Of a stretch of 44,757 nucleotides of DNA, positions 4,526-13,555 are shown one piece after another; the first letter of the stretch is position 1; each line of letters starts with the position of its first letter. This stretch comes from a virus, in IMG/VR virus record IMGVR_UViG_3300045988_163046; one strand, written 5' to 3'. Made by a program: the position numbers and the translations under genes. The notes below the pieces were generated by a model. The model did not search any database. It was not told where the DNA came from and saw only the letters and a list, made by a program, of their open reading frames with translations.

Positions 4526-5425
4526 CTACTTTCTTTTCGCATAGCTCAATGATTCAAGATTCTGCTTTTTCATTTTCCGTGTTGTGCGAACATAGATTCT
4601 TGTAGTTTCTAAACTAGAATGGCCCAAAATGTCAGCTAGTTCTGCAATCGCATTTTCACCATTCTGCATCAAATACTGAATCGCAAACAAATGTCTGAAT
4701 GCATGAGGATGTACTTTACCAAGCTTAATTCCTCTGCATTTACCAGCAACCATCTTTAAGTCTCTAGACAACACACGAGCGTTTACAGGACTTTTCTTAT
4801 CAGAAGATGTAAATATACACCCTTCTTCAATTTTGTTGTCCTTGCAATATTTTAGAAGCTCTCGCCGCAAGTCTGAACGTAGAATGATTCCTCGACCTTT
4901 TCCTTTGTTCATAACATACACATTGTCATCCGTTACTGCTTCTACAGTAAAGAACTGTAGTTCGCTCAAACGAATGCCCGTATACCCAAACACCTTCATA
5001 ATCTCGTATAAGTCCATACGATTGATTTCACGAGCTTTTTTCAATAGCCTTTGAAATTCATTAGGCTCTAAAATATCATCCAAAGAATCATCTTTCTGGA
5101 CTCTCACGTTCTTCAATAAATTCTTTGAATAATATTTCTTTAGCTTAAGAAAATTAAAATCATCATCTGAATCAATGATTTCGCTATATTTAATAAATTT
5201 GTTTATGATCACAATATAGTTGTTTACTGTACTGATTTTATAATCATGCAGCAGTTTATCTTTCACACCAACTATATCGCTCTTTTGTATTTCACCATCA
5301 GGCAATGAGTTAACAAACAAAGTAGCAACATACTTGTATTTACGAATGGTATTCTTACTTTTCTCATCCGCTGTTTCTTCTTCAATAAACCCGTCAATTT
5401 TTGTTTGTAACTCATCCTTAGTCAT
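4526..5425 (-). CDS. Tyrosine recombinase, XerC/XerD-like (second recombinase of this genome)
   Basis: Catalytic signature GIRLSEL, HPHAFRH, LGHSSLETTRIYV. N-terminal SAM-like core-binding domain. Confidence 0.85.
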   Translation of the reverse strand: MTKDELQTKIDGFIEEETADEKSKNTIRKYKYVATLFVNSLPDGEIQKSDIVGVKDKLLHDYKISTVNNYIVIINKFIKYSEIIDSDDDFNFLKLKKYYSKNLLKNVRVQKDDSLDDILEPNEFQRLLKKAREINRMDLYEIMKVFGYTGIRLSELQFFTVEAVTDDNVYVMNKGKGRGIILRSDLRRELLKYCKDNKIEEGCIFTSSDKKSPVNARVLSRDLKMVAGKCRGIKLGKVHPHAFRHLFAIQYLMQNGENAIAELADILGHSSLETTRIYVRTTRKMKKQNLESLSYAKRK

Positions 5426-7746: not shown

Positions 7747-7877
7747 ATAATACATTTTATGTATTAAATGTATTATCTGTAAACATTATAGCATTATCAT
7801 AATACATTTCAATGGACAAATAATATTTTTTTGTATTATTTATATACATTTGAAAGCTAAAACGCTATAATACATTT
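7747..7877. promoter_or_regulatory. Lysis-lysogeny switch: divergent promoters with repeated operator ATAATACATTT
   Basis: Direct copies at 7747-7757, 7799-7809 and 7867-7877, and an inverted copy at 7766-7776. Leftward TTGAAA-16-TATAAT lies at 7812-7785. A rightward TATAAT at 7866-7871 overlaps an operator. Confidence 0.55.
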
Positions 7878-7896: not shown

Positions 7897-8298
7897 ATGG
7901 ATGATAATATCGGTTCAAGAGTCAAAGAGATTCGACAAGAATTGAATTTAAGCATGGAAAAATTTGGTGCTCCTATCGGAGTTTCAAGAAGTTCTATTAA
8001 TAACATCGAAAAAGGACTTCATCATCCATCAGAAATCGTTATTAGATCCATATGTCGTGAATATAATATTGACTATGCTTGGTTAACAGAAGGTATTGGT
8101 GAAAATAAATTTATTTCCATTCCTGAGTCAAAGATAGATCAAATCATGGAAGATTATGGCTTAACTGAAAAAGAACGGCCACTTGTTCGAGGATATTTGG
8201 AAGCGCCCGAAGAAGTCAGACAACAAGTTGCCGATTATTTAAATTCAATTGTTGAAAGAGAAATAGCAAGAAGAGAAAAAGAAAAGAACAACAAATAG
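7897..8298 (+). CDS. XRE-family HTH repressor (cI-like)
   Basis: IGSRVKEIRQELNLSMEKFGAPIGVSRSSINNIEKG is a classic HTH_3. It is divergent from the early operon. Confidence 0.8.
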   Translation: MDDNIGSRVKEIRQELNLSMEKFGAPIGVSRSSINNIEKGLHHPSEIVIRSICREYNIDYAWLTEGIGENKFISIPESKIDQIMEDYGLTEKERPLVRGYLEAPEEVRQQVADYLNSIVEREIARREKEKNNK

Positions 8299-8384: not shown

Positions 8385-9398
8385 ATGAAATTATTCAAAA
8401 CTATTGGGATTGCTACGCTTGCACTATCCATGTGCACAGGATGTACAAGCTACAAAGAAAGAGTTAAAGCCAACAATCAAACAGAAGAAATAACTGACAG
8501 AGAATCAGATGATTTAAAAGCAAATTCTTTTGAAATTGGTGATTTTACTATATACTTACCTGAGTATTTTCAAAATGTCGTAAGTACAAAAGAAGGGCTA
8601 TCATTCAGGGCGGATGAAGGATATCCTATTTTAACCATCACTTTAATGGATATGGAATTGAATAGTGAAGCAGCGGATGCCTTTATGGATGCTTTAAAAG
8701 ACAGAGATGATTTCATGGAAGATACCGATACAAGTTATGGAATAAGAACATTAAAAAGAGCTGGTCGTACTGTATATTATTCAGAAACAACAGGAAATTT
8801 GACGTTAAATGATGATGACAGTGACAACGATACAAGCACACCGTCAAAATGCTTTATATATCTTTTATCAAATAACAATAAAACATCATTTATCAGTATG
8901 ATATTAATTCAGCCTAACGAAGGATTGAAATACGATTACGAAAATGAATTTGATAACATTGTTGATAATGTAGTTGTTAACGATAAAAAAGAGGAAGAAG
9001 AACAAAGCAATACAAATTCAACCACTTCAAATTCTTCTTCAAACAATTCATCTTCTTCACCAACTACAACTACTCCAAGTACAAATTCAAATGCATCAAC
9101 TCCATCTCCAACAACAGGAGAAAAAAATGCACTAAGAACTGCAAGAGAATATTTAAATATTTCTGCATTCTCTTATTCAGGATTAATTCATCAACTAGAA
9201 TATGAAGGTTACTCAACAGAGGAAGCCACTTATGCAGCTGATAACTGCAACGCAAACTGGAACGAGCAGGCCGCTAAATCAGCAAAAGAATATTTAGACA
9301 TATCGTCCTTCTCTCGACAAGGATTAATAGATCAATTGATTTATGAAGGTTATACACAAGAACAAGCAGAATATGGTGTAACACAAAACGGATATTAA
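8385..9398 (+). CDS. ltp: Ltp-family surface lipoprotein (superinfection-exclusion type)
   Basis: Signal peptide with a lipobox-like LSMCTGC, an S/T/N-rich linker, and two C-terminal Ltp repeats (NALRTAREYLNISAFSYSGLIHQLEYEGYSTEEATYAADN / AAKSAKEYLDISSFSRQGLIDQLIYEGYTQEQAEYGV). Confidence 0.8.
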   Translation: MKLFKTIGIATLALSMCTGCTSYKERVKANNQTEEITDRESDDLKANSFEIGDFTIYLPEYFQNVVSTKEGLSFRADEGYPILTITLMDMELNSEAADAFMDALKDRDDFMEDTDTSYGIRTLKRAGRTVYYSETTGNLTLNDDDSDNDTSTPSKCFIYLLSNNNKTSFISMILIQPNEGLKYDYENEFDNIVDNVVVNDKKEEEEQSNTNSTTSNSSSNNSSSSPTTTTPSTNSNASTPSPTTGEKNALRTAREYLNISAFSYSGLIHQLEYEGYSTEEATYAADNCNANWNEQAAKSAKEYLDISSFSRQGLIDQLIYEGYTQEQAEYGVTQNGY

Positions 9399-9402
9399 AA
9401 AT

Positions 9403-9430
9403 ATAAGCTAGGGTAAATTCCCTAGCTTAT
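9403..9430. terminator. Bidirectional hairpin terminator after ltp
   Basis: ATAAGCTAGGG-TAAATT-CCCTAGCTTAT, flanked by A-rich sequence upstream and T-rich sequence downstream. Confidence 0.6.
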
Positions 9431-9870
9431 ATTTCTTCTTTGCCAACTACTTCATCAGACCATATTTCTTCTTGCTTGGTTTCGCCTTCATAGCCTTCAA
9501 ATCGTTCTGCAATTGAGATTCTCTTTTTTTCTTCCATTTAGTATCCTTCTTTTAAATTTGCGCGTAAATACCTATAGGTATTAGTGTTATTCATTTTTAG
9601 ATGATAACAGAAGTCTTTGTGCATGATTATACAGAATTTGCAGATCATCCACGTTAAGCTTTTCTGCCAGGATAATTAATTTTTTTATCCATAAATCCCT
9701 TTCCATAAGATCATCCCTTTCCATTCATTTTCTATGAATAAAAAGAAAAACGTTTTCCTTATTATAATATATAATAAGTCTTAAATTTTATATGTCAATG
9801 CCTGTTTTGTATTAAATTGTGCAAATATAATACTAAAAAGTGCAAATGGTTATATATCACATTGCCAGTA

Positions 9871-9899
9871 TTGAATTTTTTTCGGGGGGGGGGTAGAAT
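9871..9899 (+). promoter_or_regulatory. Sigma-A-like promoter whose 17-nt spacer contains a G10 homopolymer
   Basis: TTGAAT (9871-9876), TTTTTTC, G10 (9884-9893), TAGAAT (9894-9899). Confidence 0.45.
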
Positions 9900-10070
9900 T
9901 TTTAATGAACTTTTGGTTATATTATTAACTAATTTTGTTTTGTAAATATTTATTAATATTTTGCATTTTTCATTACTCTTTTTAAAATGTGATGTTATTA
10001 TTCATGTGTACATGATAAATATTTTAGGCTTTTTTCTATTTCCTCAAGAAAAGATTAGCAGAGAATGAAA

Positions 10071-10116
10071 AACAGATAGTGGTGTTGAGCAGCATACACT
10101 ATCTGTTTTTCTTTTT
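10071..10116. terminator. Strong bidirectional intrinsic terminator
   Basis: An 11-bp stem AACAGATAGTG/CACTATCTGTT with a 15-nt loop. TTTTTCTTTTT follows on plus. An A-run upstream gives a T-run on minus. Confidence 0.7.
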
Positions 10117-10272
10117 GTATTCTTTCATAACTTGTTTAATATCTTCACCAACTATATTCCAATCATTAGATAATGATATATAGTCGTCATAAAACGATCC
10201 TATTTTAATCTCAACCTTTGGAAACAAGTTTATATTTTTAAGTCCTTTTATTACATAATCTATTATCTTCAT
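10099..10272 (-). CDS. 57-aa protein, partner of the PBECR-like gene (immunity/antitoxin candidate)
   Basis: The ATG lies 15 nt after the upstream stop. Translated by hand to MKIIDYVIKGLKNINLFPKVEIKIGSFYDDYISLSNDWNIVGEDIKQVMKEYKKKNR. The stop codon sits in the terminator stem. Confidence 0.45.
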   Translation of the reverse strand: MKIIDYVIKGLKNINLFPKVEIKIGSFYDDYISLSNDWNIVGEDIKQVMKEYKKKNR

Positions 10273-10287
10273 ATACACCTCTAACTA

Positions 10288-10656
10288 TTATAATTTATTT
10301 GTTTTTAATTTATTGTATTTAGTTTCATTTATTGGATAAATCGTTTTAATTTTTAATATTGGCCCTGAACTTATTCTAACTGCAACTAGTACATTGTCTT
10401 CCATTTTCTTGACAATTTGTAAGCTGTTATTCTTTTTGTCCTCCGATATAAAATCTGGATTAGAAACAATCAATGATAAATCTCTGAAAACAATATCTAA
10501 AAACAAAGGATCATTAAAATCTTCTCTGTGTCTTTCTATATGATTTATTCTATCATCATACAAAGCAATAGTTTTATCTTTATATGATTCATCCAATCCA
10601 AACATTTCTATGTATTCATCTGTTATTTTATATAACATCTTTTTCGATTTATTCAT
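10288..10656 (-). CDS. PBECR-like (phage Barnase-EndoU-ColicinE5/D-RelE fold) putative RNase toxin
   Basis: The pattern IALYDDRINHIERHREDF...IVSNPDFI...NSLQIVKK..DNVLVAVRIS....LKIKTIYPI resembles PBECR-family proteins. ATG at 10656 with GGGAG RBS. Confidence 0.45.
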   Translation of the reverse strand: MNKSKKMLYKITDEYIEMFGLDESYKDKTIALYDDRINHIERHREDFNDPLFLDIVFRDLSLIVSNPDFISEDKKNNSLQIVKKMEDNVLVAVRISSGPILKIKTIYPINETKYNKLKTNKL

Positions 10657-10682
10657 GATTATATCTCCCAAATATAAAGTAA

Positions 10683-10707
10683 AGGCCTTGTTGCATTAAC
10701 AAGGCCT
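10683..10707 (-). terminator. Hairpin terminator/attenuator immediately upstream of the PBECR-like gene
   Basis: AGGCCTTGTT-GCATT-AACAAGGCCT followed on the minus strand by TTTACTTTATATT. Confidence 0.5.
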
Positions 10708-10924
10708 ACAATTTGTGTATATGGTGGGGCGATAGTTCCCACATCTCATCAGAATTTACATTCCTACCCTTGACACTTTCGTGCGCGATAGCCATCTTTC
10801 TATCCTCACATACACAATCAGAATGTTTTCTTTCAGCCAATAGACCTATCCAGTTCGAGGTGAACACAAACAACCCTACAGAAGCTATAAGCACTATGCA
10901 TGCTGGAACACAATACTTAATCAT
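10706..10924 (-). CDS. Possible 72-aa N-terminally membrane-anchored protein (uncertain)
   Basis: Hydrophobic N-terminus CVPACIVLIASVGLFVF and a weak RBS. An equally long ORF exists on the opposite strand. Local GC is elevated. Confidence 0.25.
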   Translation of the reverse strand: MIKYCVPACIVLIASVGLFVFTSNWIGLLAERKHSDCVCEDRKMAIAHESVKGRNVNSDEMWELSPHHIHKL

Positions 10925-11069
10925 AGCTTAACAGAACCTAATCTGTGACAAACAAGATAGAGCAGCAAGCTTATCTTCATCCGTATATTACATTATTTGC
11001 TAGTGAATTTCAATCAAATTTCTCCTATTTTGTACTTTTTTGTAACATTGTGTAATCTAATATCACTTT

Positions 11070-12167
11070 TTATAACAACTTATTCATCATATCAACAATG
11101 CTCTTATCTTTTGTATCAAACCAGTGTGCATATGTATTGTGCAATGTTTCAACTGTATCTCCTAAGCGTTTGGCTATGTCAAAATCTGAGAATCCAGCTC
11201 CAGCCATGTTATTAATTAGAAATGATGCGTGTGAATGTCTAAAATCATGAATTCTTATTTTAGGCAATCCATCATCTTTTTCTTTTGCCTTATTATATGC
11301 ATCATCAAATCTTCTTTGTACCGTTTGAGGTGATATTGGTTTATAGTATCCAAATACAAATTTATCTTTTGTGAAATCATCCCATTTAGAACATTCTAAA
11401 AACCATTCTCGAAGCATTTTAGACAATGTATTAGGCATTGTGATAGTTCTATAGCTATTGTTTGTTTTTGGCGGTGTAAGCCATTTATTAGGGTCTTTCT
11501 CTTTGTATCTATATGTTTTGTTGATGTCTATAGTTTGTTTTCTAAAATCAATGTCCTTCCATTGTAGGGCCATGGCTTCACCTTTTCGTAATCCCATATA
11601 GAATAAAACAGAATAAAAGCATTTCATCATTTGTTCATCCACTTCTTCAATGAATAAATCAAAATCATATTGCTGCCATATTGTCATTTCTTCTTTTCTT
11701 TCATTCAATCTAAGATCACGTTTTACATATGTCATTGGATTGGTTGGAATGTATTCAGAAGTAACACCAAATTTATATAGCTTATTTAAAAAGAAATATA
11801 TTCTTGATACGTATGCTTTTGAATATTTCTCATCAAATTTGTTGATCAAGTTTTGCATTTGCCTTTTATCTAGAAAATCAATATCTTTCATTTCCTTAGA
11901 AAGAACATTGTACAAATATTCATCTGATTTTAGTGTTGATTCTTTTACATATTTTTTATTATATTCTTTAAAAGCTTTATATAGTCTATCAAAATTCATA
12001 TCTGATGGAAGCATAAAGAAATCTTTCCTAAATTCAATCTCAGCTTTTTGTGCTTCCCATTTAGAATCAAAACCACGCTTACGATATCTCTTTATACATT
12101 TACCATCTTTATATATTTTCCCGGCAAACATATATTTTCCTGTTTTCCTATCTAATTCCACTGCCAT
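11070..12167 (-). CDS. int: Tyrosine integrase
   Basis: MGLRKGEA, RIHDFRHSHASFLI, LGDTVETLHNTYAH. An N-terminal AP2-like arm-binding region is present. The gene is adjacent to the putative attP. Confidence 0.9.
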   Translation of the reverse strand: MAVELDRKTGKYMFAGKIYKDGKCIKRYRKRGFDSKWEAQKAEIEFRKDFFMLPSDMNFDRLYKAFKEYNKKYVKESTLKSDEYLYNVLSKEMKDIDFLDKRQMQNLINKFDEKYSKAYVSRIYFFLNKLYKFGVTSEYIPTNPMTYVKRDLRLNERKEEMTIWQQYDFDLFIEEVDEQMMKCFYSVLFYMGLRKGEAMALQWKDIDFRKQTIDINKTYRYKEKDPNKWLTPPKTNNSYRTITMPNTLSKMLREWFLECSKWDDFTKDKFVFGYYKPISPQTVQRRFDDAYNKAKEKDDGLPKIRIHDFRHSHASFLINNMAGAGFSDFDIAKRLGDTVETLHNTYAHWFDTKDKSIVDMMNKLL

Positions 12168-12204
12168 TTTTGTGCCCTCTTATATGTCCATAATATGCAA
12201 AAAA

Positions 12205-12401
12205 GGGGTATAATTCAATATTTTAATATCAAATTATACCCCAATATACCCCAAGGCAAATAAAAAAGCCTTTAAATAAAGGCTTAAATTTCAATGGAGC
12301 AGATGAGGGGATTATATAAATACCTCATATCAATTGATTTTTGATGTTATTTACATCATTATCTACGTGTTTTGATAGCACTTTGTTGTTTTGTACCCCA
12401 A
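12205..12401. other. Putative attP: tRNA 3'-end core flanked by arm-type repeats
   Basis: On the minus strand, 12313-12295 reads AATCCCCTCATCTGCTCCA (T-loop end, T-stem, acceptor, discriminator U, CCA). TATACCCCAA is tandem at 12235-12254. An inverted GGGGTATA lies at 12205-12212 and TACCCCAA at 12394-12401. Confidence 0.4.
12266..12285 (-). terminator. Hairpin terminator downstream of the lysis genes
   Basis: AAGCCTTT-AAAT-AAAGGCTT with a T-run on the minus strand. Confidence 0.45.
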
Positions 12402-12478
12402 AATGTACCTCACTGCTTCACGCAAGAAAGATAATACAGTATAAACTATATTATGTCAAACAATTTTTTATATTTTTT

Positions 12479-13555
12479 TTATTCAATTTCTGTTAACGGT
12501 GTTGGATCAACCCAAACGCCACCAATCTTGACAATATTTTTTTGAACATTCACTGCATCGACTCTGATTCTAGATACGTAGACTACTGCATTTGTGGTAT
12601 GCAGTACATTGTCATTATATCCATCTGAATTTGGTACTTTATCTACCATACGAATAGGAAACCAACCTCCTAATTTAGACAAGTAGCAGCATAAATCATC
12701 GCCAATTTTCTTCAAGCCTTGGTTGCCAATTTTCATATGTACAGATGTAACATAGCTTCCTTCATGCAAGATTTGGTCGATAGTTTCTGCGCTAGACTGT
12801 GTAGCGCCTACTGGTGTATGGGGATCTGTATCAATACCAGCATCATTAGTCCATCCAATCGCTACTCCATTACGATCAACACGATATGGATATTTTGTTC
12901 CTTTAATTACTCTACCAATGACACCTGACCAATCACCTTTTTTAACTGTAGAAGTTCCGTAGCAATTCACACTCAATGTGTTTGTACAGATAGGTAAATT
13001 AACTGAATATTTTTCTCCACTTGGAGTTGTAGGTTTTGGTGTTTCAACCTTTCCATCTAACTTTGCATTTACTTCATTAGCCAATTGTGGCATACGTGCT
13101 TCCAACCATGCTCCAGGACATGATGTAGCCGAAAACATTTTGTGCATAGTCAATGATCCGCTAGAATTTCCTGTATAGTTCAATCTAAATCCATATCGTT
13201 TACAAATATCAACACATAGGTTCACCAAGCTATCCCAAGTAGCTTGCGTCATTTCTCCAGTTGCGTTATTAATGTTTCCACATTCAATTGTAATTGATTG
13301 AGAATCATTCAACCAATTTGAACTTGTCCATGCAGCATTTTCTTCATCAACACTGCATGCAATGTCTCCATTAATTCCAATACAATAATTGGAAGATGCT
13401 TGACGAGTATTTCGTGCAAAATAATCTGCACATTGTTTACCACTCCATGCCGCAGCCATGTAGTGTGGAGTGATTTTACAAACCTTATATCCAAAACGAC
13501 CATCATAATGTTGTGATGTTCTGTTACAATATGTTGCTAATCCGGAATACGACAT
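12479..13555 (-). CDS. Endolysin: N-acetylmuramoyl-L-alanine amidase (Amidase_2/PGRP-like) plus C-terminal wall-binding region
   Basis: ITPHYMAA...SSNYCIGINGDIACSVDEENAAWTSSN...SITIECGN. It is the last gene before attP and lies downstream of the holin. Confidence 0.85.
   Translation of the reverse strand: MSYSGLATYCNRTSQHYDGRFGYKVCKITPHYMAAAWSGKQCADYFARNTRQASSNYCIGINGDIACSVDEENAAWTSSNWLNDSQSITIECGNINNATGEMTQATWDSLVNLCVDICKRYGFRLNYTGNSSGSLTMHKMFSATSCPGAWLEARMPQLANEVNAKLDGKVETPKPTTPSGEKYSVNLPICTNTLSVNCYGTSTVKKGDWSGVIGRVIKGTKYPYRVDRNGVAIGWTNDAGIDTDPHTPVGATQSSAETIDQILHEGSYVTSVHMKIGNQGLKKIGDDLCCYLSKLGGWFPIRMVDKVPNSDGYNDNVLHTTNAVVYVSRIRVDAVNVQKNIVKIGGVWVDPTPLTEIE

What the first reader, a model, noticed from the sequence alone, without database searches (positions are those of the whole stretch)
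9871..10116. G10 homopolymer forming the spacer of a promoter: candidate phase-variable switch for an ORF-less ~200-nt transcript
TTGAAT and TAGAAT are separated by exactly 17 nt (T6 C G10). A 10-nt G run is the only long G/C homopolymer I noticed in this AT-rich genome. Gain or loss of one G would give a 16- or 18-nt spacer. That is the established mechanism of phase-variable promoters such as the Neisseria, Haemophilus and Bordetella fimbrial or porin promoters. Downstream I found no ORF with an RBS before the strong terminator at 10071-10116. That terminator is shared tail-to-tail with the PBECR-like nuclease operon, so read-through would be antisense to it. A stochastic switch in prophage cargo next to a toxin-like pair is unusual.
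Basis: partly seen in the sequence, partly recalled or inferred. Interest (0 to 1): 0.7.

Follow-up and report, generated by a model that had tools for sequence, protein, structure and literature searches.

The report
Hypervariable poly-G tract in phage promoter
A run of ten G's sits between the two halves of a promoter-like site in a gut temperate phage; its length differs from phage to phage (5 to 13 G's) while the DNA around it hardly changes, so it is probably a slippage-driven on/off or dimmer switch for a small non-coding RNA, a kind of switch known in pathogens but not yet shown on a phage of this type.

Summary
TTGAAT-T6-C-G10-TAGAAT lies at 9871-9899, and G10 is the only G/C run of 6 or more in the 44.7-kb window. 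The same element occurs in 68 related phage or prophage sequences from human-gut metagenomes; the host is an uncultured Erysipelotrichaceae. Every copy with the region intact has the G run. Its length ranges from 5 to 13 (G9 in 28, G10 in 12), while the flanks are almost invariant and control A/T runs in the same block do not vary. The commonest hexamer spacing is 16 nt, not 17. Lineages with T5 mostly carry G10 and lineages with T6 mostly carry G9, which suggests the total spacing is under selection. The -10 hexamer is kept in 64 of 68 copies; the -35 is poorly conserved. Downstream there is no conserved ORF, no Rfam match, and a conserved bidirectional terminator. The neighbouring PBECR nuclease pair is incidental: at least six different cargo layouts occupy that position. 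Best reading: a hypermutable promoter-spacer switch, working like porA or NikS, for a conserved ~210-nt non-coding RNA of unknown role. Transcription itself is untested. About 30% of copies carry short tracts that are probably locked off, and one relative lacks the whole block.

The parts
9871..9876 (+). -35-like hexamer TTGAAT (4 of 6 matches to TTGACA)
   Evidence: It varies among relatives: TTGAAT 46, TCGAAT 13, TCGATT 5, others 4.
9877..9883 (+). T6 run plus C, the 5' part of the spacer; the T run is itself length-variable (T5 to T7)
   Evidence: T5 in 16 copies, T6 in 47, T7 in 3. Control runs in the same block (T6 at 10030-10035, T7 at 9680-9686, T5 at 9979-9983) are essentially invariant.
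9884..9893 (+). G10 homopolymer, the hypervariable tract
   Evidence: It is the only G/C run of 6 or more in the window. Lengths across 68 relatives: G5 x10, G6 x2, G7 x8, G8 x5, G9 x28, G10 x12, and G11, G12, G13 x1 each. Only 2 other G/C runs of 6 or more occur in 457 kb of related loci.
9894..9899 (+). -10-like hexamer TAGAAT (5 of 6 matches to TATAAT)
   Evidence: Conserved in 64 of 68 relatives (TGGAAT x2, TAAGAT x1, GAGAAT x1).
9905..10116 (+). Predicted ORF-less transcript of about 210 nt (candidate non-coding RNA). The 3' part, 9970-10115, is almost invariant in all relatives; 9925-9945 carries indels.
   Evidence: Alignments. The small ORFs are broken by indels in L018, L025 and L032. 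No Rfam family reaches its threshold. Fold z-score is -4.4, mostly from the terminator. The start of the transcript is inferred from the -10 hexamer only.
10039..10045 (+). UUUCCUC, an anti-Shine-Dalgarno-like motif in the loop of the hairpin before the terminator
   Evidence: Predicted fold. This is a lead only: no phage target scored better than shuffled controls.
10064..10114 (.). Bidirectional intrinsic terminator, shared tail-to-tail with the minus-strand integrase/cargo operon
   Evidence: One compensatory G-C to A-U pair in the apical stem in 5 relatives. Sequence similarity to relatives stops just to its right.
9587..9724 (-). Orphan small ORF, 45 aa (39 aa from the better-placed second ATG), transcribed divergently; it always travels with the block
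   Evidence: Conserved reading frame in all relatives. Only homologues of 77% identity or more exist in 5.8 billion proteins. No Pfam, PHROG, NCBIfam or PDB match.
9771..9798 (-). Strong divergent promoter-like site TTGACA-16-TATTAT (11 of 12) for the small ORF
9810..9847 (+). Two 17-nt direct repeats (..GTGCAAAT) with starts 21 nt apart, lying between the divergent promoters; candidate operator sites
   Evidence: family D4. L008 has a 14-nt deletion that fuses the two copies.
9847..9855 (+). TGGTTATAT, upstream copy of a 9-mer that brackets the promoter
   Evidence: Only two exact copies exist in the window, here and at 9914. TGGTTATA is kept at both positions in the divergent relative L018.
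9914..9922 (+). TGGTTATAT, downstream copy (about +10 relative to the predicted start)
9960..9988 (+). Second, tract-independent promoter-like site TTTGCA-17-TAAAAT inside the conserved region; it could yield a shorter RNA of about 120 nt
   Evidence: 9 of 12, chance level. The -10 is conserved in L018; the -35 is not.

Best explanation
The G tract is a real, hypermutable simple-sequence repeat kept at one fixed position in the lysogeny module of a clade of temperate phages of gut Erysipelotrichaceae. Together with the adjacent T run it forms the spacer between a weak -35-like hexamer and a well-conserved -10 (TAGAAT). Slipped-strand mispairing during replication changes the spacer by one base at a time. 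That should move the promoter between more active geometry (16-17 nt; G9 or G10 with T6) and inactive geometry (15 nt or fewer, or 18). Lysogens would then differ stochastically in how much they make of a conserved, ORF-less RNA of about 210 nt that ends at the bidirectional terminator shared with the integrase/cargo operon.

Shown: the tract exists, is conserved, is hypervariable, and shows a spacing bias; there is no coding capacity; the terminator is real.

Inferred: that the hexamers are a working promoter, that an RNA is made, and what it does. The likeliest roles are a trans-acting regulatory RNA, or an RNA that pairs with the convergent integrase/cargo mRNA over the roughly 50-nt shared terminator.
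For: - G10 is unique in the window. Only 2 other G/C runs of 6 or more occur in 457 kb of related DNA.
- All 68 related copies carry a G run at this position, including the most divergent relative L018, whose 5' flank has many substitutions yet keeps G10.
- Length ranges from 5 to 13 while the flanks are nearly identical. Six of 48 groups with identical flanks hold more than one tract state.
- Control A/T runs of 5-7 in the same block are invariant, but the T run next to the G tract varies.
- Spacing of 16 nt is the mode (31 of 68). T5C lineages mostly have G10 and T6C lineages mostly G9 (Fisher p = 0.010). L012 has T7 with G8, again 16 nt.
- The -10 TAGAAT is kept in 64 of 68.
- No conserved ORF follows on either strand, and all real downstream genes are on the minus strand in every relative, so this is a stand-alone transcript and not a leader.
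- The terminator is conserved and has one compensatory pair.
- Precedents exist for the mechanism. The H. pylori sRNA NikS/HPnc4160 is controlled by a variable T repeat in its promoter region (PMC8035401). The poly-G spacer of the Neisseria porA promoter is from my own knowledge.
Against: - The promoter match (9 of 12) is at chance level for this AT-rich DNA, and there are no transcript data.
- The -35 is weak and varies; 20 of 68 copies have C at its second position. There is no TG extended -10.
- Two relatives have TGGAAT, which lacks the critical A at -11.
- 21 of 68 copies have 12-14-nt spacers. One G5 lineage is stable in 8 samples. One relative has lost the whole block. The RNA is therefore dispensable, and the switch is often not switching.
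- The clade is young, with blocks mostly over 95% identical, so shared ancestry explains part of the conservation.
- The T/G compensation test is not corrected for phylogeny.
- Tract lengths come from consensus assemblies, mostly Illumina, and could be off by one for G9/G10.
- There is no covariation support for RNA structure beyond the terminator, and no target was found.
Confidence: 0.5

Rival explanations
1. The tract is a neutral slippage hot-spot. It arose once in the ancestor of a young phage clade and simply expands and contracts, and neither the hexamers nor the downstream region makes a regulated product.
For: The promoter match is at chance level. The length distribution is wide, including G5-G7 and G12-G13, and the block is dispensable in L078. 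The relatives are closely related, so conservation may reflect recent ancestry or recombination of a scaffold that flanks a cargo hot-spot.
Against: A neutral G run in 33% GC DNA should pick up interruptions, yet only 2 of 68 copies are interrupted. It survives as G10 in L018, where the flank has diverged. Spacing of 16 nt is favoured through opposite changes in the T and G runs, and the neighbouring T run is far more variable than control T runs. The region downstream of the tract is more conserved than the adjacent protein-coding DNA.
Confidence: 0.2
2. The tract matters for spacing, but not between -35 and -10. It sets the distance or helical phase between protein-binding sites. These would be the two TGGTTATAT copies at 9847 and 9914, or the GTGCAAAT repeats and the -10. 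Tract length would then tune binding of a regulator or activator that controls this promoter or the divergent small-ORF promoter, as with Bordetella fim or Neisseria nadA.
For: TGGTTATAT occurs exactly twice in the window, bracketing the tract; TGGTTATA is kept at both positions in L018. Two 17-nt direct repeats with starts 21 nt apart lie between the divergent promoters. The -35 is poorly conserved, which is expected for an activator-dependent promoter.
Against: The 9-mer with one mismatch allowed is not enriched in the window (23 matches against 21.4 expected), so two exact copies could be chance plus shared ancestry. No DNA-binding protein is assigned. The cI-type operator candidates (AATACATTT, four copies at 7749-7877) are absent here. 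The strong minus-strand promoter is about 75 nt or more away from the tract.
Confidence: 0.15
3. The tract is a frameshift switch inside a small protein gene: the TTG-start 42-aa ORF at 9817-9945, which reads through the G run.
For: the ORF listing reports this ORF across the tract.
Against: It has no ribosome-binding site and a TTG start. Only G7, G10 and G13 would keep its frame, but the common state is G9. The sequence on both sides is changed by indels and substitutions in relatives without regard to the frame. It has no PHROG match.
Confidence: 0.02
4. The run is a sequencing or assembly artefact, such as two-colour-chemistry poly-G.
For: Homopolymer length calls of G9 against G10 can be off by one. 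Four IMG/VR loci end at or next to the tract.
Against: The run sits mid-contig with identical flanks in 68 sequences from IMG/VR, ENA and Logan assemblies of many samples and studies. Lineage-specific lengths are reproducible: G5 in 8 samples, and duplicate records agree.
Confidence: 0.01

Closest known systems
Neisseria meningitidis porA promoter (poly-G tract between -35 and -10); own knowledge, not re-read here
   Same: A G homopolymer of about 9-11 forms part of the spacer of a sigma-70-type promoter. One-base slippage changes the spacing from optimal to sub-optimal to inactive. Tract length differs among otherwise near-identical strains.
   Different: porA is a chromosomal gene of a Gram-negative pathogen and encodes a surface porin. 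Here the element is on a temperate phage of a Gram-positive-type gut commensal, the output has no ORF, a neighbouring T run co-varies with the G run, and expression has not been measured.
Helicobacter pylori sRNA NikS / HPnc4160 with a variable T repeat in its promoter region (PMC8035401)
   Same: A homopolymer in the promoter region of a stand-alone small RNA. The repeat is conserved but highly variable in length among strains, and length sets the RNA level.
   Different: It is a T repeat, chromosomal, in a Gram-negative host with many contingency loci. Its targets are known (cagA and outer-membrane proteins). There is no sequence or Rfam relationship to the RNA here.
Hypermutable polyG tracts in Campylobacter phages (Sorensen et al. 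2021, Cell Rep 35:109214; cited in PMC12823448)
   Same: Poly-G tracts carried on a phage genome in an AT-rich background, generating heterogeneous phage populations.
   Different: Those tracts lie inside coding genes (receptor-binding proteins) of lytic phages and act by frameshifting. Here the tract is intergenic, in a promoter-like spacer of a temperate phage's lysogeny module.
Bordetella pertussis fim2/fim3 poly-C tracts and Mycoplasma hyorhinis vlp poly-A tracts in promoters; own knowledge
   Same: Homopolymer length sets the distance between promoter elements or an activator site and the -10.
   Different: Those control surface-protein genes. The fim promoters depend on the activator BvgA; no activator is known here.
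Prophage-encoded regulatory small RNAs in general; own knowledge
   Same: A short ORF-less transcription unit with its own terminator in the lysogeny or accessory region of a prophage.
   Different: No homology to any Rfam family. No known example to my knowledge has a homopolymer switch, and the literature searches found none.

Membership tests
Simple-sequence-repeat (homopolymer) phase-variable promoter, porA type | A homopolymer of 8 or more lies between the -35 and -10 hexamers of a sigma-70-type promoter | tested here: met
   TTGAAT-T6-C-G10-TAGAAT at 9871-9899. The hexamers are consensus matches only (9 of 12, chance level).
Simple-sequence-repeat (homopolymer) phase-variable promoter, porA type | Tract length is polymorphic among closely related strains while the flanks stay constant | tested here: met
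   G5 to G13 in 68 copies. Six of 48 flank-identical groups hold more than one state. Control homopolymers are invariant.
Simple-sequence-repeat (homopolymer) phase-variable promoter, porA type | Tract length is heterogeneous and reversible within a clonal population | not testable with these tools
   No read-level data are available. Four loci ending at the tract are only a hint.
Simple-sequence-repeat (homopolymer) phase-variable promoter, porA type | Transcription starts downstream, and its level depends on tract length | not testable with these tools
   Needs 5' RACE or dRNA-seq and reporter fusions. Indirect support comes from the 16-nt modal spacing with T/G compensation.
Trans-acting bacterial or phage small RNA | No conserved protein-coding capacity | tested here: met
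   ORFs 9817-9945 and 9961-10068 have no ribosome-binding site and are broken by indels in relatives. No PHROG match.
Trans-acting bacterial or phage small RNA | Own promoter and Rho-independent terminator delimiting a 50-300-nt unit | tested here: inconclusive
   The terminator is well supported. The promoter is predicted only.
Trans-acting bacterial or phage small RNA | Conserved secondary structure supported by covariation | tested here: inconclusive
   In 35 distinct sequences the only compensatory pair is in the terminator. The body is too invariant to test.
Trans-acting bacterial or phage small RNA | Membership of a described RNA family | tested here: not met
   Best Rfam matches are far below gathering scores, for example Ref1C at 20 bits against a threshold of 90.
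Type I toxin-antitoxin (small hydrophobic toxin plus antisense RNA) | A conserved small hydrophobic ORF with a ribosome-binding site, and an RNA complementary to its mRNA | tested here: not met
   The 35-aa ORF 9961-10068 is not conserved. The conserved 39/45-aa ORF is not hydrophobic. The only complementarity to it is an 18-of-21 AT-rich match that is not conserved.
Phage attachment site (attP) | Lies at the prophage/host junction and contains the core shared with attB | tested here: not met
   Prophages L017, L019 and L020 join the host next to tRNA-Gly(GCC), at the 5' side of int. A tRNA 3'-end-like core sits at window 12286-12305.

The most novel reading that the evidence does not exclude
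A phage-borne contingency locus. The temperate phage keeps a hypermutable G tract, buffered by a co-varying T tract, so that lysogens stochastically switch a conserved non-coding RNA on and off. That RNA overlaps the shared bidirectional terminator by about 50 nt. It would then control the stability or expression of whatever integrase-proximal cargo cassette (nuclease pair, DUF1828/1829, DUF2335 and so on) is plugged in on the other side. This would be a generic bet-hedging switch for exchangeable prophage cargo in a Gram-positive-type gut commensal.
Probability: 0.1. Interest if true: 0.8.

Novelty: new member of a known kind. Interest (0 to 1): 0.55.

Why it matters
Slippage-driven phase variation is textbook for surface genes of Gram-negative pathogens. 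It is hardly documented for gut Firmicutes-type commensals or for temperate phages, and only a few cases control an RNA rather than a protein. If the switch is real, a widespread human-gut prophage would make its lysogens heterogeneous for a conserved regulatory RNA. The window's exact small ORF appears in 76 blocks of the public assembly index. The natural series of tract lengths (G5 to G13, T5 to T7) already provides an allelic ladder for testing promoter geometry. The locus also marks a sharply bounded cargo-exchange hot-spot next to the integrase.

Tried and rejected
- GenBank phages: no DNA match, near or distant.
- Exact-pattern scan of representative genomes: nothing found. An integrase search there gave one MAG with the element (L020) and one without it (L021).
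- attP hypothesis for the ORF-less AT-rich region: rejected. The junction is at tRNA-Gly on the other side of int.
- Leader or riboswitch for a downstream plus-strand gene: rejected. Every real downstream gene is on the minus strand in every relative.
- Small ORFs or a type I toxin: rejected, because they are not conserved.
- Rfam: no family.
- RNA covariation: uninformative outside the terminator.
- Search for phage mRNA targets at translation-initiation regions: the best energy (-28.3) is no better than shuffled RNAs (-26.4 +/- 2.4).
- Complementarity to the divergent small-ORF mRNA (repeat family D3): weak and not conserved.
- cI-type operators (AATACATTT): absent near the tract.
- A minus-strand promoter using the C run as its spacer: none fits (read). 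The minus-strand site at 9946-9919 is disrupted by indels in relatives.
- Function of the 45-aa ORF: no hit in Pfam, PHROGs, NCBIfam, PDB or among 5.8 billion proteins beyond close relatives.
- Scans for the 5' part or the terminator alone: no new contexts apart from two probable chance palindromes in large contigs.

Full report
**The observation**

The window reads TTGAAT (9871-9876), T6 (9877-9882), C (9883), G10 (9884-9893) and TAGAAT (9894-9899), exactly as described, with a 17-nt spacer. The window is 32.8% G+C. G10 is its only G or C run of six or more; the next longest are four runs of five. From those base frequencies, about 0.004 runs of ten are expected by chance (my arithmetic).

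The promoter match itself is unremarkable. It scores 9 of 12, and the scan found 36 such sites in 5.6 kb against 33.7 in shuffles. What is unusual is the tract, not the hexamers. The terminator at 10064-10114 is real. It has 18-nt arms and T runs on both sides, dominates the predicted fold (z = -4.4), and overlaps the stop codon of the minus-strand ORF that follows the PBECR3 gene.

**Context**

The window is a complete-looking temperate siphophage-type genome.
- Structural genes, an Amidase_2 lysin (12479-13555) and a tyrosine integrase (11070-12167) are on the minus strand.
- An XRE-type repressor (7897-8298) and an Ltp-family lipoprotein (8385-9398) are on the plus strand.

In integrated relatives the order is thrS, tRNA-Ser, tRNA-Asp, tRNA-Gly(GCC), int. 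A tRNA 3'-end-like core lies at window 12286-12305 between lysin and int. The window is therefore the excised form, and attP is not in the region under study.

The host is an uncultured member of the Erysipelotrichaceae. Its thrS is 81-85% identical to those of Dubosiella, Faecalicoccus and Floccifex, and one MAG is labelled Solobacterium sp..

**Relatives**

GenBank phages gave nothing. The following searches together gave 68 sequences that hold the element:
- pattern scans of IMG/VR and of metagenome contigs;
- the integrase search of representative genomes, which added one MAG copy (L020);
- look-ups of the neighbouring small ORF.

Of these, 57 are distinct over 150-nt flanks plus tract.

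The block from about 9550 to 10115 is nearly identical in all of them. To the right of the terminator, similarity stops abruptly, and at least six different layouts follow: the PBECR3 pair, DUF1828/1829 genes, DUF2335 genes, a pair of 134-aa genes, a 249-aa gene, or nothing so that int abuts the terminator. The left side also varies (Ltp or a 228-aa protein, MazEF, an IS110 element). The toxin-like neighbour in the window is therefore incidental.

**The tract in relatives**

Every copy has a G run at the same place.

| G-run length | G5 | G6 | G7 | G8 | G9 | G10 | G11 | G12 | G13 |
|---|---|---|---|---|---|---|---|---|---|
| Copies | 10 | 2 | 8 | 5 | 28 | 12 | 1 | 1 | 1 |

Only two tracts are interrupted: G4TG2 and GAG8. 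The most divergent relative, L018, has many substitutions in the 5' flank and altered hexamers (TCGAAT, TAAGAT) but still carries G10.

Six of 48 groups with identical 150-nt flanks hold more than one tract state. In the same block, control runs do not vary: T6 at 10030-10035 is T6 in 68 of 69 copies, T7 at 9680-9686 in 40 of 40, and T5 at 9979-9983 in 69 of 69. The T run next to the G tract is T5 in 16 copies, T6 in 47 and T7 in 3. In 457 kb of related DNA there are only two other G/C runs of six or more.

The tract is therefore real, conserved in position, and far more mutable than its surroundings. It is not a poly-G read artefact.

**Spacing**

| Distance between hexamers (nt) | 12 | 13 | 14 | 15 | 16 | 17 | 18 |
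|---|---|---|---|---|---|---|---|
| Copies | 10 | 5 | 6 | 6 | 31 | 7 | 3 |

The mode is 16 nt, not the window's 17. T5C lineages mostly have G10 (6 against 3 with G9) and T6C lineages mostly have G9 (20 against 4 with G10), giving Fisher p = 0.010 on the distinct set. L012 has T7 with G8, again 16 nt.

This is the best indirect evidence that the total distance between the flanks matters, as a promoter spacer would require. The test is not corrected for shared ancestry. The -10 is kept in 64 of 68 copies. The -35 is weak and variable, and two relatives have TGGAAT.

About 30% of copies have 12-14-nt spacers. One G5 lineage is identical in eight samples, which fits short tracts being stable and the promoter being locked off there. 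One relative (L078) has lost the whole block. Expression is therefore dispensable for the phage.

**What lies downstream**

Nothing between 9900 and 10070 is coding. The two TTG-start ORFs have no ribosome-binding site and are broken by indels in L018, L025 and L032. In every relative all real downstream genes are on the minus strand, so this is not a leader. No Rfam family is matched.

The 3' part (9970-10115) is almost invariant, even in L018. The segment 9925-9945 carries indels, and eight relatives have a 20-nt insertion just before the terminator. RNAalifold supports only the terminator, with one G-C to A-U compensatory pair.

A hairpin loop just upstream of the terminator carries UUUCCUC (10039-10045), which resembles an anti-Shine-Dalgarno seed. 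No phage translation-initiation region pairs with the RNA better than with shuffled controls. A second, tract-independent promoter-like site at 9960-9988 could give a shorter RNA.

Upstream there is a strong divergent promoter (9798-9771, 11 of 12). It would drive an orphan 39/45-aa ORF that always accompanies the block and has no detectable relatives outside this clade. Two 17-nt direct repeats lie between the promoters, and TGGTTATAT brackets the tract at 9847 and 9914.

**Interpretation**

This is a slippage-prone homopolymer pair forming the spacer of a sigma-A-type promoter, which switches or tunes a conserved stand-alone non-coding RNA in lysogens. It would work like the porA poly-G promoter (own knowledge) and like the T-repeat-controlled sRNA NikS of H. 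pylori (PMC8035401). Poly-G tracts on phage genomes are known from Campylobacter phages, but there they lie inside genes (reference in PMC12823448).

I put this at about 0.5. The main rivals are:
- a neutral hot-spot in a young clade (0.2);
- a spacing element between regulator-binding sites rather than between -35 and -10 (0.15).

A coding frameshift switch and an artefact are effectively excluded.

What the RNA does is unknown. Because it and the convergent integrase/cargo mRNA share the roughly 50-nt terminator hairpin, pairing at the 3' ends is a testable possibility alongside ordinary trans-acting regulation.

**Verdict**

The mechanism class is known. The setting is new: a temperate phage of a gut Erysipelotrichaceae, with an RNA output and a co-varying T run. 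Interest is moderate (0.55). It would rise if read-level heterogeneity and tract-dependent transcription were shown.

Noticed in passing
window 10115-11070, and the same position in L001-L078: The DNA immediately to the right of the shared terminator is a cargo-exchange hot-spot. At least six alternative contents lie between the terminator and int: the PBECR3 pair plus a 72-aa membrane protein, DUF1828/1829, DUF2335, a 134-aa pair, a 249-aa gene, or nothing. The breakpoint is sharp, at about 10115.
   Followed up: partly
window 9427-9537 (-): This is a remnant of the C-terminal end of a MazE/AbrB-type antitoxin (..ERFEGYEGE..EIWSDEVVGKEEI), disrupted by frame changes and a 14-nt indel among relatives. 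Intact MazE-PemK pairs sit at this position in L058 and L077, and a MazE gene alone in L074; L003 and L015 have an AbrB/MazE-like N-terminus.
   Followed up: partly
window 9587-9724 (-): An orphan 45-aa ORF (39 aa from the second ATG, which has the better ribosome-binding site). It begins with a tandem 18-nt duplication (MERDDL-MERDL). It is found only in this phage clade, always next to the G-tract block, and matches no family or structure.
   Followed up: partly
window 12168-12478: attP region between the lysin and int. It holds a tRNA-Gly 3'-end-like core at 12286-12305. It also has a strong minus-strand promoter-like site (12459-12431, 11 of 12) followed by two terminator-like hairpins (12285-12266, 12242-12205). 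This could be a short minus-strand transcript or the int regulatory region.
   Followed up: partly
window 7749-7877: Four of the six exact AATACATTT copies in the window cluster in the cI/cro intergenic region, three on the plus strand and one on the minus. They are candidate repressor operators.
   Followed up: partly
window 4526-5425 (-): A second tyrosine recombinase (299 aa, Phage_integrase E = 4e-18) lies among the early genes, in addition to the attP-adjacent integrase. Its role is unknown.
   Followed up: no
L041, L042, L044, L048 (IMG/VR): Four of 38 IMG/VR loci end within or a few bases from the G run. This suggests assemblies break there, either from read-level heterogeneity or from poor coverage of the homopolymer.
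   Followed up: no
window about 10059, in L009, L022, L024, L025, L028, L034, L035, L047: A 19-21-nt insertion (AGAAAAAAACGAATGAGCAA-like, apparently a partial duplication of AGAATGAAAAAC) lies just before the terminator in eight relatives.
   Followed up: no
L024:2425 and L031:4097: These are the only other G/C runs of six or more (C7) in 457 kb of related loci. Their context was not examined.
   Followed up: no
L078:900-1175: In this relative the whole block (both promoters, G tract, RNA region, terminator) is missing, and int abuts a 57-aa fusion ORF that keeps only the C-terminal half of the small protein.
   Followed up: partly
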